Below the pieces are notes generated by a model. It ran no database searches, had not been told where the DNA came from, and saw only the letters and a program-made list of their open reading frames with translations. DNA of 64,000 nucleotides from Candidatus Liptonbacteria bacterium (GTDB lineage: Bacteria > Patescibacteriota > Minisyncoccia > UBA6257 > 2-01-FULL-56-20), in contig JAHFLL010000001.1 in assembly GCA_023244895.1 (NCBI GenBank), forward strand, positions 617,802-681,801, written 5' to 3'. The translations under genes were made by a program, and so were the position numbers. Positions within the stretch are counted from its first letter, which is position 1; the number at the start of each line of letters is the position of its first letter. This document shows, in pieces, positions 3,505-45,020 of the stretch.

Positions 3505-3533
3505 TTGACTTTATGCGATTCTTTTATCATAAT
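3505..3533 (+). promoter_or_regulatory. sigma70-like promoter (TTGACT-17 bp-CATAAT) upstream of GC-rich ORF
   Basis: ttgact at 3505-3510, 17-nt spacer, cataat at 3528-3533. A 5' UTR with two small hairpins (3544-3568, 3578-3596) follows. Confidence 0.5.
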
Positions 3534-3617
3534 GTGGCCAGTTCGTCGGATGACCCGACGAGACCCACTCACCGACCACGGGACCACTCGTGGCGGAAAG
3601 AAGAAAGGGCGTGCAGA

Positions 3618-4022
3618 ATGGCAAGCATTCAGGTCGTCGGGAAAGACGGAACAACACTCAATTCCGTCCACACGACCAGGCTGGAGAAGGTTCAACTCAA
3701 GCATGGCGAAACCATCAGCTGGGTCGAGGTGTTTTACGCCTTCGACTCATCATCCTGGGGATTCCGGGACCACATCATCCGCCATGGAAATGCGGTCGCG
3801 AACGTCCACATCAGGAACAGCCAGAATGGATGCGGGCCCGAGGTCTACGTCCGAATCGAGGGCTATTCTTCCAAGGACGTGGGTGTCCTGGTCGAGGAAG
3901 TGCTCAAGATGATGGGTGGGAAGATTGTCGAATTCCGGCCCGTCCGCTCCTGGTTCACCCGCGTCCGTGACGCGTGGAAGGAGTGGCAGCAGGAAGTTCG
4001 CGCGGGCATGGACACCAACTAG
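3618..4022 (+). CDS. hypothetical protein in a GC-rich island (MASIQVVGKDG...)
   Basis: ORF track frame 3468..4022; ATG at 3618 preferred because the promoter at 3505-3533 lies inside the longer ORF. GC markedly higher than neighbours; no recognisable family motif. Confidence 0.55.
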   Translation: MASIQVVGKDGTTLNSVHTTRLEKVQLKHGETISWVEVFYAFDSSSWGFRDHIIRHGNAVANVHIRNSQNGCGPEVYVRIEGYSSKDVGVLVEEVLKMMGGKIVEFRPVRSWFTRVRDAWKEWQQEVRAGMDTN

Positions 4023-4207
4023 CTCGCAGCAAGGAATAGGACGCGCGGTAGTAATATCGCCGCGCGTCCGTCCAACTAAATTCGGTAAATGGTTAGTGAA
4101 TTTAGTTGGATTATCCCCTGTCTCGAATAATTGGCCTTACCCAGAGAGCCGTTTTAGGGATTACCTTTCTCCTCGAATTAGGATAAGATTGTTGCTGTTA
4201 TATCAAT

Positions 4208-4954
4208 ATGAACCGGGAACCCGTCCTCCAAGTAAAGGGACTCAGAAAGTCCTATAAAAACACCGTCGCCGTAGATGACGTCTCTTTTGAGGTACAGCCT
4301 AACGAAATAGTGGGATTATTGGGTCCGAACGGAGCGGGAAAAACCACTATTATCAGCATGATCTTGAGTGTCTTGAAGCCGACTGCGGGCACTATCCAAA
4401 TTGGAGGTAAAGATATTTTCAAAAACAGAGAGGAGGCGCTATCTCAGGCCAACTTTGCGGCAGTCTACGCGCAACTACCCGGCAATCTAACAGTTGCTCA
4501 AAACCTATACGCTTTTGGTCTAATATATGGAGTAGAGAATCTGAAACAACATATAGACAAATTGATTGAGGAGTTTAATTTGGAAAGATTCCGTGACATC
4601 AAATGCGGCACGCTTTCTTCCGGCGAACAGACCCGGGCAGCTTTAGCGAAAGCAATGGTAAATAGTCCCCGCTTGCTTCTGCTGGATGAACCAACCGCCT
4701 CGCTTGACCCTTCTACCGCCCAGATAATCCGACACAAGATGAAAGAGTATGCCCGCAACGGCAAAGGAGGCGTACTCTGGACATCGCACAACATGCACGA
4801 AGTCGCGGAGGTTTGCGATAGAATCTTATTCTTATCTCACGGCAAGATACTCCTTGAAGGCAATCCCAAAACTATGCCCCAAGAGTACGGCAAAAAAGAT
4901 CTAGAGGAGCTTTTCATCACGGTCGCGAGAGAGCCGCTATCACTAGATGCTTAA
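4208..4954 (+). CDS. ABC transporter ATP-binding protein (ABC-2 type)
   Basis: Walker A GPNGAGKTT, signature LSSGEQ, Walker B LLLLDEP, H-loop. Confidence 0.9.
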   Translation: MNREPVLQVKGLRKSYKNTVAVDDVSFEVQPNEIVGLLGPNGAGKTTIISMILSVLKPTAGTIQIGGKDIFKNREEALSQANFAAVYAQLPGNLTVAQNLYAFGLIYGVENLKQHIDKLIEEFNLERFRDIKCGTLSSGEQTRAALAKAMVNSPRLLLLDEPTASLDPSTAQIIRHKMKEYARNGKGGVLWTSHNMHEVAEVCDRILFLSHGKILLEGNPKTMPQEYGKKDLEELFITVAREPLSLDA

Positions 4955-4963
4955 CCTATCAAC

Positions 4964-5767
4964 ATGAATCTTAAAAGAGTATACGCCATATTTGTTCGTC
5001 AATTTTATCTGATACGCGACAACCCCACGCGCATATTCCAGATGCTGATTTGGGGTACGGTGGATATTATTTTGTGGGGATTCACCAGCCAATATCTTAC
5101 GACCATCGCGGGACCGGGACCCAATTTCGCTCTGGTCTTTTTGGGAGCGGTTCTAGTTTGGGATTTTATGAGCCGAACCATGCAAGGAATCACCACCTCT
5201 TTCTTGGAAGATTCCTGGTCGCGCAACTTCCTTAATCTCTTCGCCTCCCCTCTCTCCATTTCGGAATATCTAGGCGGACTCGTACTGATTAGTATCTCCA
5301 AAAGCGTGATTGGATTCGCAATTTTGCTTCTGGTAGCTGGCGCCATCTTCGGATTCTCGATTCTTGCTTACGGATTTTCGGTTTTGTCTTTCCTCTTTAT
5401 CCTTTTCTTGTCCGGTATTGCTCTCGGCATGCTGGGCGTGAGCATGATGTTCCGTTTCGGACCAATAGCGGAATGGTTTATCTGGCCCCTGCCCGCGCTC
5501 ATATCACCGTTTGTGGGCGTTCTTTATCCGCTCTCTACTTTACCGGGATGGATGCAGTCGGTAGGAAAGATTTTGCCGCCCTCCTATGTTTTCGACGGGT
5601 TGCGATCCATCGTTGCAGGAGGAGAGTTCCAGGCAACCTCTTTTGCTATGGGAGTAGGTCTGGCTATCTTCTATATCATCATTGCTTACATCGTCTTCGT
5701 TATGGCCTACCGGCGCGCCGTTCGAACAGGAATTATTGTGCGCTACAGCGCGGAAAGCTTGAGCTAA
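4964..5767 (+). CDS. ABC-2 family transporter permease
   Basis: Six TM segments, directly downstream of the ATPase, ABC-2 permease-like. Confidence 0.8.
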   Translation: MNLKRVYAIFVRQFYLIRDNPTRIFQMLIWGTVDIILWGFTSQYLTTIAGPGPNFALVFLGAVLVWDFMSRTMQGITTSFLEDSWSRNFLNLFASPLSISEYLGGLVLISISKSVIGFAILLLVAGAIFGFSILAYGFSVLSFLFILFLSGIALGMLGVSMMFRFGPIAEWFIWPLPALISPFVGVLYPLSTLPGWMQSVGKILPPSYVFDGLRSIVAGGEFQATSFAMGVGLAIFYIIIAYIVFVMAYRRAVRTGIIVRYSAESLS

Positions 5768-43465: not shown

Positions 43466-43800
43466 GGTTCGTGTCCTCCCAGGCGACCGCTTGTAGCGGC
43501 GGGCCTGATGGCTGTCAAAGTCGATAGTAGCGCGCAACGCACGCACCACCGAGGAGGGTTAGCCAAACCCTCACATCTTTTTGCATTATACCTCAAATAT
43601 ACAAAATTGTCCAATCCGGCCTAAACCCCGTAAATCCTAGCTAAACCAGCCCCAAGCCCCCCATTTCCTGAGTTAGTCTTGACAGGATAGAGCAAAACAA
43701 TCATCCAATATCTAGGTATTTAAAATTGCGGAATAATAACCAATATGCAAATATTAGAATAGAGTCGTTGAAATCCCACAATGGAAGGAGGTGATGAAAA

Positions 43801-43944
43801 GTGAACCTGGCTATCATGCAAGTCGAAGACCTGCATCTGACTGAAGACTTCGTCTTCCAGGACGAACAGGCGACGTCGTTGCCAATGCAGCCGTGCTCGA
43901 TCTGCAGCAACTGCTGCTACTCGGACTGCACCGGCGGGAACTAG
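43801..43944 (+). CDS. candidate RiPP precursor peptide (47 aa, acidic leader + Cys-rich core)
   Basis: GTG 43801 with AGGAGG 9 nt upstream; translation MNLAIMQVEDLHLTEDFVFQDEQATSLPMQPCSICSNCCYSDCTGGN stop (tag 43942-43944). Below the ORF-track length cutoff. Confidence 0.6.
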   Translation: MNLAIMQVEDLHLTEDFVFQDEQATSLPMQPCSICSNCCYSDCTGGN

Positions 43945-43952
43945 CGCAACTC

Positions 43953-43986
43953 GCGGGAGAGGCCACGAACGAGTCGCCTCTCCCGC
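43953..43986 (+). promoter_or_regulatory. intercistronic hairpin (attenuator-like) between precursor and rSAM genes
   Basis: gcgggagaggc cacgaacgagtc gcctctcccgc, an 11-bp GC-rich stem. Confidence 0.55.
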
Positions 43987-44006
43987 TCAAATCAACGAGG
44001 ACCGCT

Positions 44007-45020
44007 ATGTCTATAAAGTTGTGCCAATGGGATATCACGGGTTCGTGCAACCTCAACTGCACCTACTGCAGAGAAAAGGCTACCGAGGGGCTGCACCATC
44101 TGCCCCTGGAAGCCATTCTCCGCATAATCGACCAGTTCGCAGACCTCAAGGTCAGGATGGTATCCATCTCGGGCGGAGAACCGTTGACCCTGAAGTTTCT
44201 ACCGCAGGTCCTGGAATACCTGCGGGGCAAGGTGGAGACCATCGGACTAACCACGAACGCCACTCTGGTTTCGGAACGGAACGTTGGTTTCATCCGAGAC
44301 TTCTTCGATGGAGTGCAAGTCAGCCTAGACGGCAGTTCCGCGGAAATCCACGATCGCTTTCGCGGAGAAGGATCGTTCAATCTCACCACGACGGCGATTC
44401 GCCTCATGGTTGAGCGGGGCATCAACGTCATGCCACGCTTGACCATCTGCAGAGAGAACCTGAGCGACACGGCCGAATATGTCCGACTAGCCCATCGCCT
44501 GGGAATGAAGTCGGCATATCTCCGAAGAATGATCCCCGCCGGCAACAGCAAGGGAGTGGACCCCATTCCCGCCGATAGGCTAAAGGAAGCCTTCCGGGTG
44601 GCTTTCCAAGTCGGACAAGAGCTCGGTCTACACGTGGGCTCTGCTGACTACTTCTCTCAACTGGAGTTCGACGCGAAGGAACGCGAGAAAGCAGAGAGGA
44701 ACCTAGCCGAACATCCAGGCGAACTCTTGAGCGGGTGCTCAATCGGTACGGAAGCATTCTACCTGGCACAAGACGGCAAGGTGCTCTTCTGTCCGTACCT
44801 GCCCGTGTACTGTGGGGACATGACTAAGGAACACCTCTCCGAGATTTGGGCCACTTCCAAAATGTTCAAGATCAGTCGCAATCTGCGCTGGAACATCGAG
44901 GGAAAGTGCGGGCGGTGCCGCTTCAAGATGGCATGTGGCGGATGCCCGGCGTACGTCTTCCTGACAACCGGCAATCTGACCTCCTCAGACGGCGGATGCT
45001 GGGTCGACGAGCCAGCCTGA
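44007..45020 (+). CDS. radical SAM / SPASM-domain peptide-modifying enzyme
   Basis: CX3CX2C cluster CNLNCTYC near N-terminus (MSIKLCQWDITGSCNLNCTYCRE), C-terminal SPASM-type Cys cluster (CSIGTEAFY...CPYLPVYCG...EGKCGRCRFKMACGGCPAYVF). ORF track frame 43893..45020; ATG 44007 preferred. Confidence 0.85.
   Translation: MSIKLCQWDITGSCNLNCTYCREKATEGLHHLPLEAILRIIDQFADLKVRMVSISGGEPLTLKFLPQVLEYLRGKVETIGLTTNATLVSERNVGFIRDFFDGVQVSLDGSSAEIHDRFRGEGSFNLTTTAIRLMVERGINVMPRLTICRENLSDTAEYVRLAHRLGMKSAYLRRMIPAGNSKGVDPIPADRLKEAFRVAFQVGQELGLHVGSADYFSQLEFDAKEREKAERNLAEHPGELLSGCSIGTEAFYLAQDGKVLFCPYLPVYCGDMTKEHLSEIWATSKMFKISRNLRWNIEGKCGRCRFKMACGGCPAYVFLTTGNLTSSDGGCWVDEPA

What the first reader, a model, noticed from the sequence alone, without database searches (positions are those of the whole stretch)
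3505..45020. Multiple single-gene GC-rich islands scattered through an otherwise ~47% GC genome
Seen: five segments have conspicuously higher GC (~55-62%, judged from the sequence) than flanking genes. They are 3540-4060 (MASIQVVGKDG..., own TTGACT/CATAAT promoter), 13380-14060 (199-aa protein, own terminator), 21000-21480 (MSERAS..., strong AAGGAGG RBS), 31230-31970 (239-aa protein on the minus strand, own terminator) and 42440-45030 (lipoproteins plus the RiPP-like unit). Each occupies an intergenic slot between native AT-richer genes and carries its own expression signals. High GC opens spurious ORFs in several frames (seen on both strands in the track). Inference: these are horizontally acquired orphan genes, plausibly from a high-GC host organism (CPR bacteria are frequently episymbionts of Actinobacteria), or alternatively a chimeric assembly. 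None of the five proteins has a recognisable family motif.
Basis: partly seen in the sequence, partly recalled or inferred. Interest (0 to 1): 0.6.

Follow-up and report, generated by a model that had tools for sequence, protein, structure and literature searches.

The report
GC-rich swappable accessory gene cassettes
Five GC-rich patches in this tiny CPR (Paceibacteria-type) genome are real, self-contained accessory genes that sister species gain, lose or swap at fixed sites between conserved genes; they are not assembly errors, and nothing found here links them to actinobacterial hosts.

Summary
Five segments (8.5% of the window) have GC 0.54-0.61 against 0.477 elsewhere. Their eight genes have GC3 0.69-0.83, against 0.533±0.038 in 50 core genes, with no overlap (p=1e-9). 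They are real protein genes with their own promoter, Shine-Dalgarno site and terminator. Chimeric assembly is excluded: contigs from five other sample assemblies (three ENA MEGAHIT, two Logan) match the window 100% across the junctions covered, and relatives hold islands in the same slots. The organism is a Paceibacteria/"Liptonbacteria"-like CPR bacterium, not a saccharibacterium. Comparison with relatives shows cassette behaviour. Island 1 is cleanly absent from one relative. Other GC-rich cassettes occupy a nearby slot in two relatives and share island 1's 3' hairpin module. Islands 3 and 4 sit in conserved slots but their proteins are only 37-38% identical in some relatives. The island 4 allele shared with another species is much younger than the flanks (dS 0.50 vs 1.3-2.2). 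The rSAM/peptide/methyltransferase unit is a Patescibacteria-restricted cassette found in varying contexts. The best fit is minimal-mobile-element-like whole-gene cassettes exchanged within the clade. The unusual points are that they are GC-richer than the core and that the donor pool is unidentified. Interest is moderate.

The parts
3480..4170 (+). Island 1 cassette: promoter 3505-3533, 134-aa orphan ORF 3618-4022 (GC3 0.77), and a 3' double-hairpin module 4032-4109 (GGACGCGCGG...CCGCGCGTCC, then CCAACTAAATTC...GAATTTAGTTGG)
   Evidence: Promoter. ORF and GC3. The cassette is absent from relative L101, whose flanks align to window 2368-3479 and 4238-5727 with only ~120 nt between them. The 3' module is 95-97% identical in L100 and L102, where it follows a different cassette in another slot.
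13300..14055 (+). Island 2 cassette: promoter-like site 13341-13370, 199-aa orphan ORF 13419-14018 (GC3 0.71), terminator 14024-14050. It lies back-to-back with the presumed 23S rRNA promoter (13299-13272, minus strand).
   Evidence: The + strand is favoured over the antisense 216-aa ORF by a codon model. Both junctions are confirmed by the independent contig L001. No comparative data were obtained.
20956..21548 (+). Island 3 cassette between the CCA-adding enzyme and PheS: AAGGAGG Shine-Dalgarno site, 138-aa helical orphan ORF 21047-21463 (GC3 0.76), shared terminator region
   Evidence: The sister MAG (L010) has a 144-aa homologue in the same slot and orientation, 37-38% identical, also GC-rich, with the promoter and N-terminus MSERAS.IAA conserved. 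In many relatives PheS and CCA abut, with gaps of 5-85 bp.
31190..32040 (-). Island 4 cassette between MscL and a hydrolase: promoter and 5'-UTR hairpin 31962-32040, AAGGAGG plus GTG start at 31961, 239-aa ORF 31242-31961 (GC3 0.69), terminator at about 31195-31235
   Evidence: Mismatches by codon position are 17/17/63. Identity is 86.5% nt to spB against 80% in the flanks, and ~47% to spC. dS is 0.50 against 1.3-2.2 in the flanks, with dN/dS 0.12. The ORF is 232-240 aa in all three species.
42497..42931 (-). Island 5: lipoprotein A (signal peptide and lipobox ...LVVGAC; GC3 0.69)
   Evidence: gene call in L008. It is a paralogue of lipoprotein B, 53-55% identical.
43028..43465 (-). Island 5: lipoprotein B (GC3 0.75), with promoter-like site 43613-43585. 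A 98-nt perfect repeat (42812-42909 and 43337-43434) covers the lipobox and linker of both genes. A 45-nt repeat (42442-42486 and 42962-43006) covers both terminators.
   Evidence: There is a weak PKD-like hit.
43801..43944 (+). Island 5: 47-aa Cys-rich precursor-like peptide (GC3 0.83), followed by a hairpin before the rSAM gene
   Evidence: It is conserved (46-55% identity) upstream of the rSAM gene in L093-L098.
44007..45020 (+). Island 5: radical-SAM/SPASM enzyme, 337 aa (GC 0.57, GC3 0.70)
   Evidence: Pfam PF04055 3.5e-22 and PF13186 5e-8; NCBIfam hits all fall below their family cut-offs. The nearest relatives (77-43% identity) form a family whose named members are Parcubacteria/Patescibacteria.
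45098..45625 (+). Conserved methyltransferase partner of the rSAM gene. It lies outside the GC-rich island and is AT-rich (GC 0.375, GC3 0.43).
   Evidence: It follows the rSAM gene in every homologous locus. It is AT-richer than the rSAM gene in all four genomes examined. Pfam Methyltransf_25.

Best explanation
The five GC-rich segments are autonomous accessory gene cassettes: one gene each for islands 1-4, and two lipoprotein genes plus a peptide/rSAM unit for island 5. The genome is a ~0.84-Mb Paceibacteria ('Liptonbacteria'-like) CPR genome. Each cassette carries its own promoter, strong Shine-Dalgarno site and hairpin terminator, and sits in an intergenic slot between conserved core genes.

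Among sister species these slots are empty, hold a different cassette, or hold a highly diverged version of the same gene. Whole cassettes (promoter to terminator) are exchanged between lineages by recombination in the conserved flanks. This is the behaviour defined for neisserial 'minimal mobile elements' and for replacement flexible genomic islands. Their GC-rich codon usage marks them as belonging to a gene pool compositionally distinct from the host core.

Shown: the genes are real and expressed as independent units (by sequence signals); they are not chimeric; slot polymorphism exists; island 4 shows phylogenetic incongruence and a younger age; the rSAM cassette is CPR-restricted.

Inferred: the pool derives from GC-richer members of the same lineage (56-60% GC 'Liptonbacteria'/Paceibacteria exist) or from their mobile elements. 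DNA probably enters by natural transformation; a type IV pilus cluster lies next to island 5. The orphan proteins probably serve strain-variable functions rather than housekeeping ones.
For: Real coding genes:
- GC3 far exceeds GC2 in the called frames.
- Island 4 substitutions fall 17/17/63 by codon position, with dN/dS 0.12.
- ORF length and start are kept in three species despite 37-38% identity.

Own expression signals.

Not chimeric: contigs from three ENA MEGAHIT sample assemblies and two Logan runs are 100% identical across the junctions covered.

Lineage: best PheS relatives are Patescibacteria/Paceibacteria MAGs, 86% to a 'Ca. Liptonbacteria' MAG.

Slot behaviour:
- PheS and CCA abut (5-85 bp) in many relatives, but the closest MAG has a GC-rich 700-nt insert with a 38%-identical homologue.
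- Island 1 is a clean 758-nt versus ~120-nt indel against L101.
- The permease-YceG slot is 96 nt here but holds other GC-rich cassettes (163-aa orphan, GC3 0.76; M50 peptidase, GC3 0.77) in L100 and L102. One ends in island 1's 3' module at 95-97% identity, against 83-85% in the flanks.

Exchange between lineages: three species are equidistant in the flanks (80-86% nt), but island 4 is 86.5% identical win-spB and ~47% to spC. Island 4 dS is 0.50 against 1.3-2.2 in four flanking genes.

rSAM unit: a graded homologue series with Parcubacteria/Patescibacteria names. The peptide and MTase partners are conserved but the neighbours differ in each genome.

Codon usage: it is not the host's translational optimum, since rpoBC, S6 and SSB lack the NNC bias. 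It matches 58-60% GC Paceibacteria loci best (r 0.75-0.79, against 0.35 for the window's own core). Named Liptonbacteria genomes span 35-60% GC.
Against: - No donor genome was identified for any cassette. The RSCU match largely tracks GC itself (r=0.94), so it shows compatibility only.
- Island 2 and the two lipoproteins have no comparative data.
- Anciently diverged alleles (islands 3 and 4, 37-38% aa) are all still GC-rich in ~48% GC genomes. The rSAM gene is GC-richer than its conserved MTase partner in every genome. Both facts suggest a gene-specific force on composition rather than simple un-ameliorated import.
- No mobility genes, tRNA adjacency or common boundary repeats were found.
- Transformation is inferred only from the nearby pilus genes.
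- Only 64 kb of the genome and a few short relatives' contigs were examined. The labels spB-spF may not all be distinct species.
Confidence: 0.6

Rival explanations
1. The genes are resident (or old) members of this clade. Their GC-richness is actively maintained by a gene-specific force, such as selection on codon or mRNA composition or GC-biased gene conversion at recombination-prone loci. It is not a leftover donor signature.
For: - Highly diverged alleles of islands 3 and 4 (37-38% aa identity, dS saturated) are GC-rich in every species examined.
- The rSAM gene is GC-richer than its conserved MTase partner in four genomes with backgrounds of 0.34-0.51 GC.
- GC boundaries are sharp at the gene ends while the promoter regions are conserved with the flanks.
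- Island 4 synonymous divergence is low, which could reflect synonymous constraint.
Against: - Highly expressed genes do not share the bias.
- Biased gene conversion should act on the homologous flanks rather than on unalignable inserts (inference).
- Low dS, together with 86.5% identity extending through the non-coding terminator and UTR, fits recent exchange better than codon constraint.
- The presence/absence polymorphism of island 1 needs gain or loss in any case.
Confidence: 0.22
2. One reading: the islands were acquired from a high-GC non-CPR host or neighbour, such as Actinobacteria.
For: GC3 of 0.69-0.83 and raised R/(R+K) of 0.62 against 0.47 resemble proteins from GC-rich genomes. 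The lipoprotein linkers are Pro/Ala-rich.
Against: - The organism is Paceibacteria-like, for which no actinobacterial host link is known (background knowledge).
- The rSAM gene and its peptide belong to a Patescibacteria family.
- Island 4 found only slot-orthologues in 1.84 billion representatives and in 5.8 billion clusters.
- All island proteins found in the collection are singleton 90% clusters among 15 billion proteins.
- There were no hits in the phage or plasmid checks that were run.
- Cassettes carry CPR-type promoters and SD sites that are conserved with the flanks.
Confidence: 0.1
3. Assembly chimera or contamination: GC-rich fragments from another organism were stitched into a CPR contig.
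For: The compositional jumps at the island edges are abrupt.
Against: - Independent assemblies (MEGAHIT contigs from three ENA samples, Logan contigs from two SRA runs) are 100% identical to the window across both junctions of islands 1, 2 and 3, and across the whole of island 5 with both its flanks.
- No independent contig was retrieved for island 4 itself. Its placement rests on relatives from other samples that carry homologous islands in the same slot.
- Promoters and first codons are continuous with the conserved flanks.
Confidence: 0.01
4. The GC-rich segments are structured non-coding RNA genes and the ORFs are artefacts of high GC.
For: Several frames are open on both strands. GC-rich islands in lower-GC genomes are often RNAs.
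Against: - No island matches any Rfam family, even at E<=5.
- The called frames show strong GC3>GC1>GC2 periodicity.
- Substitutions concentrate at third codon positions.
- Protein-level homology persists where DNA similarity is lost.
- Pfam domains are found for the rSAM gene and for the M50 cassette of L102.
Confidence: 0.02

Closest known systems
Minimal mobile elements (MMEs) of Neisseria (Saunders & Snyder 2002; Snyder et al. 2007; definition as quoted in PMC3082526)
   Same: Two conserved genes bracket a site that holds different whole-gene cassettes in different lineages. No mobility genes are present. Incorporation is by homologous recombination in the flanks, in organisms with DNA-uptake machinery. 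This matches the rpoBC-ABC, permease-YceG, PheS-CCA and MscL-hydrolase slots.
   Different: - The comparison here is between species-level relatives of an uncultured CPR lineage, not strains of one species.
- Cassettes are GC-richer than the core, whereas the neisserial strain-specific genes were noted as low-GC in PMC3082526.
- In islands 3 and 4 the alternatives are diverged homologues that share the promoter and first 8-14 codons, not unrelated genes.
- Transformation is inferred, not shown.
Replacement flexible genomic islands (Lopez-Perez, Martin-Cuadrado & Rodriguez-Valera 2014, PMC4033161)
   Same: The position is the same in all genomes, the content is divergent, and exchange between lineages is by homologous recombination. 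Island 4 shows a more recently shared allele than its flanks.
   Different: Those islands are multi-gene clusters for exposed cell structures. Here they are single genes, and islands 1-4 show no obvious signal peptide or membrane segment on reading; only the island 5 lipoproteins are surface-type. The diagnostic SNP peaks at the boundaries cannot be tested at ~20% divergence.
Compositionally detected genomic islands / HGT in Patescibacteria (PMC12455944)
   Same: Atypical composition and patchy distribution. Most inferred transfers in that study were Patescibacteria-to-Patescibacteria, as the rSAM cassette suggests here.
   Different: Here the islands are 0.6-2.6 kb, have no integrase or phage genes, occupy slots shared with relatives (shown for islands 3 and 4), and are all shifted toward high GC.
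Integron gene cassettes
   Same: Single-ORF units, with a structured element at the 3' end that two unrelated cassettes share (island 1 and the L100/L102 cassette).
   Different: There is no integrase, no cassette array and no attC-type site common to the cassettes. Each cassette has its own promoter, and the cassettes are dispersed between core genes.
Radical-SAM/SPASM peptide-maturase (RiPP-type) cassettes
   Same: Island 5 has a Cys-rich 47-aa peptide next to an rSAM/SPASM enzyme with a CxxxCxxC motif plus a methyltransferase. The trio is conserved in six related loci.
   Different: It scores below every curated NCBIfam cut-off (the best is heme b synthase, 165 bits against a cut-off of 500), so it is not a member of a named maturase family. 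The product and chemistry are unknown.

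Membership tests
Minimal mobile element / whole-gene cassette between conserved flanks | Two conserved flanking genes with different content between them in different lineages | tested here: met
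   - rpoBC-ABC slot: 758 nt against ~120 nt.
- Permease-YceG slot: 96 nt here, against ~0.7-kb and ~1.1-kb GC-rich cassettes in L100 and L102.
- PheS-CCA slot: 5-85 bp in many relatives against island 3.
- MscL-hydrolase slot: divergent alleles.
- Not tested for island 2 or for the island 5 lipoproteins.
Minimal mobile element / whole-gene cassette between conserved flanks | Incorporation by homologous recombination in the flanks (no own mobility functions) | tested here: inconclusive
   No integrase or transposase ORFs lie in or beside the islands, and no tRNA is adjacent. Island 4 is younger than its flanks (dS 0.50 vs 1.3-2.2), and the raised identity spans terminator to promoter. The diverged YceG-end repeat around the L102 cassette hints at one-sided homology. 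Recombination itself was not observed.
Minimal mobile element / whole-gene cassette between conserved flanks | Host is naturally transformable | not testable with these tools
   A type IV pilus gene cluster (PilB/PilT-like ATPases, T2SSF, prepilin peptidase, pilins) lies at 45.7-53.3 kb. Competence itself is untested.
Classical horizontally acquired genomic island | Atypical base composition and codon usage | tested here: met
   complete separation of GC and GC3 from 50 core genes.
Classical horizontally acquired genomic island | Mobility genes, tRNA-adjacent insertion, flanking direct repeats | tested here: not met
   None were found. The tRNAs lie at 16.8, 18.5, 24.6, 36.1, 57.4 and 58.6 kb, not beside the islands. 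There are no inter-island or flanking repeats.
Classical horizontally acquired genomic island | Identifiable donor lineage by phylogeny | tested here: inconclusive
   The rSAM gene and its peptide trace to other Patescibacteria. Island 4 has only slot-orthologues in the big searches. Islands 1 and 2 have no phage or plasmid hits and were not searched against the big protein databases. Island 3 has no phage hit and its only known relative is the slot homologue in L010.
Replacement flexible genomic island | Present at the same site in all compared genomes, with divergent versions of similar function | tested here: met
   Island 4 in three species (232-240 aa; 89% and 38% identity). Island 3 in two species.
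Replacement flexible genomic island | Multi-gene cluster for exposed cell structures | tested here: not met
   Islands 1-4 are single genes without an obvious signal peptide or membrane segment on reading the sequences (no predictor was run). Only island 5 carries lipoproteins.
Integron gene cassette | attC recombination site plus intI integrase and a cassette array | tested here: not met
   There is no shared 3' site among the window's cassettes, no integrase among the ORFs scanned, and the cassettes are dispersed.
Radical SAM/SPASM peptide maturase | CxxxCxxC rSAM motif, a SPASM auxiliary-cluster domain, and an adjacent conserved precursor peptide | tested here: met
   PF04055 3.5e-22 and PF13186 5e-8. 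C14, C18 and C21 and the C-terminal Cys residues are invariant across 16 homologues. The peptide is conserved upstream in six loci. The gene falls below all named-family cut-offs, so it is a member of the superfamily only.
Structured non-coding RNA | Match to an RNA family or compensatory substitutions; no codon periodicity | tested here: not met
   No Rfam match in any island at E<=5. Codon-position substitution pattern. GC3 periodicity.

The most novel reading that the evidence does not exclude
Paceibacteria of this clade may maintain a dedicated set of GC-rich, promoter-to-terminator single-gene cassettes that behave as a shuffled pool. The constant 5' ends (promoter plus the first 8-14 codons) and shared 3' hairpin modules would serve as recombination anchors, letting variable protein bodies be swapped between slots and species. 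Their GC-rich composition would be actively maintained by selection or biased conversion rather than inherited from a donor. That would make it a compositionally marked 'variable compartment' in a minimal genome, running opposite to the usual AT-rich accessory genome.
Probability: 0.15. Interest if true: 0.7.

Novelty: new member of a known kind. Interest (0 to 1): 0.4.

Why it matters
CPR/Patescibacteria have tiny, streamlined genomes, and how they acquire and turn over genes is poorly understood. In this 64-kb stretch about 8.5% of the sequence consists of independently expressed cassettes that are gained, lost or replaced at fixed slots among sister species without any mobility genes. That pattern is consistent with transformation plus homologous recombination as a main route of gene flow in these organisms.

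The cassettes run against the general rule that accessory genes are AT-richer than the core (PMC5303225). GC3 could therefore serve as a cheap marker for the flexible gene pool in this lineage. The result also raises a testable question about what keeps these genes GC-rich.

Practically, the result warns against discarding such segments as contamination when curating CPR MAGs. It also warns against inferring actinobacterial hosts from GC content alone.

Tried and rejected
- **Rfam.** Gathering and E<=5 thresholds over the whole window gave nothing in the islands, so the ncRNA idea was dropped.
- **Similarity between islands.** blastn and tblastx found none, apart from the internal lipoprotein duplication. 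The islands are not copies of one element.
- **Family scans.** Pfam, NCBIfam, PHROGs and PADLOC on the orphans gave no family, phage or defence signal.
- **Phage and plasmid searches.** tblastn of islands 1-4 against 50,697 phage records, and of islands 1 and 2 and lipoprotein B against 72,556 plasmids, found no matches.
- **Viral contigs.** The rSAM family profile and the 3' module were searched against IMG/VR and found nothing.
- **Structure prediction.** AlphaFold2 single-sequence models of islands 4 and 1 had pLDDT 36.6 and 52.3, too poor to use, so fold searches were not run.
- **Translational-selection explanation.** Rejected, because rpoBC, S6 and SSB lack the NNC bias.
- **Uptake sequences and boundary motifs.** No over-represented 10-12-mers or shared boundary motifs were found.
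- **Larger inserts in the PheS-CCA slot.** The 2-6 kb inserts in L011, L013 and L014 are an unrelated, conserved 706-aa gene, not cassettes of this kind.
- **Window-level GC scan of relatives.** It proved undiscriminating, with GC-rich and AT-rich patches equally common at +/-0.09. A gene-level GC3 scan replaced it.

Full report
**Observation.** Sliding-window GC confirms all five peaks at the stated coordinates. The 300-nt maxima are 0.60, 0.63, 0.64, 0.65 and 0.66, against a window median of 0.483. With refined boundaries (3480-4170, 13300-14055, 20956-21548, 31190-32000, 42440-45030) the islands make up 8.5% of the window at GC 0.579, against 0.477 outside. The gene-level signal is stronger. 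Fifty core genes have GC 0.480±0.020 (maximum 0.525) and GC3 0.533±0.038 (maximum 0.60). The eight island genes have GC of at least 0.566 and GC3 of 0.69-0.83 (z +4.2 to +8.0). Separation is complete, with Mann-Whitney p=1e-9 for GC3. A lenient window-GC threshold also flags patches inside rpoBC, the 23S rRNA, gatA and a 401-aa gene, so the codon signal is what singles out the five.

**Are they genes?** No island matches any Rfam family, even at E<=5. The called frames show GC3>GC1>GC2 periodicity.
- Island 4: a related contig shows substitutions distributed 17/17/63 over codon positions, with no frame-breaking indels and dN/dS = 0.12. Three species keep an ORF of 232-240 aa from the same SD+GTG.
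- Island 3: the homologue in the sister MAG has lost DNA-level similarity beyond the first ~14 codons but retains protein similarity (38%, E 5e-19) and ORF length.
- Island 2: the + strand ORF is supported by a promoter-like site, a strong terminator and a codon-model likelihood over the antisense ORF.
- Island 5: two paralogous lipoproteins, a 47-aa Cys-rich peptide and a radical-SAM/SPASM enzyme.

**Not an assembly artefact.** The island proteins looked up come from an 840,672-bp contig and also occur on contigs from other sample assemblies: MEGAHIT contigs from ENA samples ERZ27279937, ERZ27279942 and ERZ27279977, and Logan contigs from runs SRR14366791 and SRR14366796. All are 100% identical to the window. 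They span both junctions of islands 1, 2 and 3 and the whole of island 5 with both its flanks. No independent contig was retrieved for island 4. Its placement is supported by relatives from unrelated samples that carry homologous islands in the same slot.

**Organism.** PheS-anchored loci from GTDB species representatives are all Patescibacteria, labelled Paceibacteria, Parcubacteria or Minisyncoccia. The best match is 86% to a 'Ca. Liptonbacteria' MAG, JAZDLT01. This is not a saccharibacterium, so the actinobacterial-host argument does not carry over.

**What relatives show.**
1. *PheS-CCA slot (island 3).* Many relatives have the two genes abutting, with gaps of 5-85 bp. The closest MAG (L010) has a 700-nt GC-rich insert (0.57-0.62, against 0.505 for the locus) with the diverged island 3 homologue in the same antisense orientation. 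Its promoter and the N-terminus MSERAS.IAA are conserved. PheS has dN 0.085 and island 3 has dN 0.64.
2. *MscL-hydrolase slot (island 4).* Contigs from two other relatives, spB (L090-92) and spC (L099), keep the synteny DoxX-bPH2-hydrolase-[island]-MscL. All three pairs are 80-86% identical in the flanks. The island is 86.5% identical between win and spB and ~47% identical to spC (protein 89% vs 38%). It is GC-rich in all three, at 0.595-0.615. dS is 0.50 for island 4 between win and spB, against 1.28-2.25 for four flanking genes. The raised identity runs from terminator to promoter. This is phylogenetic incongruence plus a younger age, meaning whole-cassette exchange between lineages.
3. *rpoBC-ABC slot (island 1).* In JAZDLT01 (L101) the flanks align up to window 3479 and from 4238 onward, with ~120 nt in between instead of 758 nt. 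Island 1 is simply absent.
4. *Permease-YceG slot.* This slot is a 96-nt spacer here. In L100 it holds a different GC-rich orphan cassette (163 aa, GC 0.64, GC3 0.76). In L102 it holds a cassette remnant plus an M50-peptidase cassette (GC3 0.77). The latter is bracketed by a diverged direct repeat of the YceG 3' end.
5. *Shared 3' module.* The L100 and L102 cassettes end in the same ~77-nt double-hairpin module as island 1. It is 95-97% identical, against 83-85% in the flanks, although the proteins are unrelated. The module is unique in the window.

**The rSAM unit.** Its nearest homologues form a graded series from 77% to 43% identity, and the named members are Parcubacteria/Patescibacteria. 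Below about 37% the hits become generic heme-b-synthase-like proteins. In every homologous locus the gene is preceded by the conserved Cys-rich peptide and followed by a small methyltransferase, but the surrounding genes differ. The rSAM gene is GC-richer than its methyltransferase partner in all four genomes: 0.57/0.375, 0.49/0.335, 0.52/0.31 and 0.36/0.29. The right edge of island 5 therefore cuts through a conserved gene pair.

**Origin of the composition.** The bias is strongest in C-ending two-fold codons and in AAG, and the amino-acid shift is modest. The genome's own highly expressed genes lack it, so translational selection is unlikely. Island RSCU correlates best with 58-60% GC Paceibacteria loci (r 0.75-0.79, against 0.35 for the window's own core), but this measure mostly tracks GC. 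Named 'Liptonbacteria' genomes span 35-60% GC, so GC-rich donors exist inside the lineage. No homologues outside the slot-orthologues were found for island 4 in 5.8 billion clusters or in an exhaustive scan of 1.84 billion representatives. The exceptions were short BamE-like repeat-motif matches. The phage, plasmid, PHROGs and PADLOC checks run on the orphans also found nothing.

**Generality.** A uniform crude gene caller was run on ~620 kb of mid-GC relatives. It finds GC3-high outliers in 2.8% of genes and GC3-low outliers in 6.7%, which is the usual AT-rich direction for atypical genes. The window has 6 of 66 GC3-high (7 counting island 2, which the caller assigns to the antisense ORF) and 1 GC3-low. 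Using 7, Fisher p=0.006 for frequency and p=0.003 for direction. Across 36 species, core genomes are GC-richer than accessory genomes (PMC5303225), so the direction here is unusual.

[quoted passage not shown] They also match replacement flexible genomic islands (PMC4033161). HGT and islands in Patescibacteria, mostly between Patescibacteria, are already documented (PMC12455944). I therefore file this as a new member of a known kind.

Two points remain unexplained. First, anciently diverged alleles all stay GC-rich. Second, the rSAM gene differs in composition from its conserved partner everywhere. The candidate explanations are repeated import from GC-rich relatives, gene-specific selection and biased conversion, and they cannot be separated with the data in hand.

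The functions of the four orphans remain unknown. Island 4 carries an N-terminal BamE/SmpA-like beta-hairpin motif, and island 3 appears mainly helical from its sequence. Single-sequence structure models were unusable. My working guess is strain-variable accessory roles rather than housekeeping, based on their turnover.

Noticed in passing
window 4032-4109; L100:2717-2793; L102 (reverse complement) 56-126: A ~77-nt double-hairpin 3' module (a GC-rich 10-bp stem followed by an AT-rich 12-bp stem) ends island 1 here. It also ends a different, unrelated GC-rich cassette in another slot in two relatives. It is 95-97% identical, against 83-85% in the flanks. It is unique in the window and absent from IMG/VR, and one JGI metagenome contig carries it.
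   Followed up: partly
L102 (reverse complement) 213-1437: In a relative, a GC-rich M50-peptidase cassette (308 aa, GC3 0.77) is inserted next to YceG. It is bracketed by a diverged direct repeat of the YceG 3' end (33 nt at 85%, extending to ~55-75 nt at ~70%). This looks like a donor-derived flank remnant, perhaps from one-sided homology-facilitated integration.
   Followed up: partly
window 43801-45625: A conserved three-gene unit: a 47-aa Cys-rich peptide, a hairpin, an rSAM/SPASM enzyme and a small methyltransferase. It occurs in six related Patescibacteria loci with different neighbours. One context (L097, GC 0.34) looks phage-like, with Bro-N, a PIF1 helicase and many small ORFs. The methyltransferase is markedly AT-richer than the rSAM gene in every genome.
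   Followed up: partly
window 42442-43434: The two lipoprotein paralogues are ~53% identical overall. They share a perfect 98-nt stretch covering the lipobox and Pro-rich linker (42812-42909 and 43337-43434) and a 45-nt terminator repeat (42442-42486 and 42962-43006). This suggests recent gene conversion or a constant N-terminus with a variable body.
   Followed up: no
window 9465-13299: The 23S rRNA gene (9665-13013, minus strand) is 3,349 nt against a 2,925-nt model. It has a ~65-nt insertion near model position 312 and a larger AT-rich one after position 583 (around window 12,200-12,300). It is followed by the 5S gene and preceded by a perfect TTGACA-16-TATAAT promoter (13299-13272). No 16S gene lies upstream within the window, so the rRNA genes appear to be unlinked.
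   Followed up: partly
window 1-3214 (minus strand); L005:791-7597: rpoB and rpoC are fused into a single 2,268-aa gene, in this genome and in the sister MAG (L101).
   Followed up: no
window 45716-53275: A type IV pilus / type II secretion-like cluster (pilins with N-methylation motifs, a prepilin peptidase, T2SSF, and PilT-like and PilB/MshEN-like ATPases) lies directly beside island 5. It is a plausible DNA-uptake apparatus.
   Followed up: no
window 24473-24542 (minus strand): A weak tRNA-like match (Rfam tRNA-Sec, 32 bits against a gathering score of 47, E 0.018) that ARAGORN does not call. It sits just upstream of tRNA-Met (24620-24692).
   Followed up: no
window 33759-34286 and 45098-45625: AT-rich outlier genes (GC3 0.39 and 0.43, against a core mean of 0.53). 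The second is the methyltransferase partner of the rSAM gene. Compositional outliers therefore occur in both directions, although GC-rich ones dominate here.
   Followed up: no
L093:9744-10529: Another genome with the rSAM cassette has a GC-rich (0.59, GC3 0.70) Thr/Gly-rich lipoprotein orphan immediately after the methyltransferase. This echoes the lipoprotein-plus-cassette arrangement of island 5, although BLAST detects no homology.
   Followed up: no
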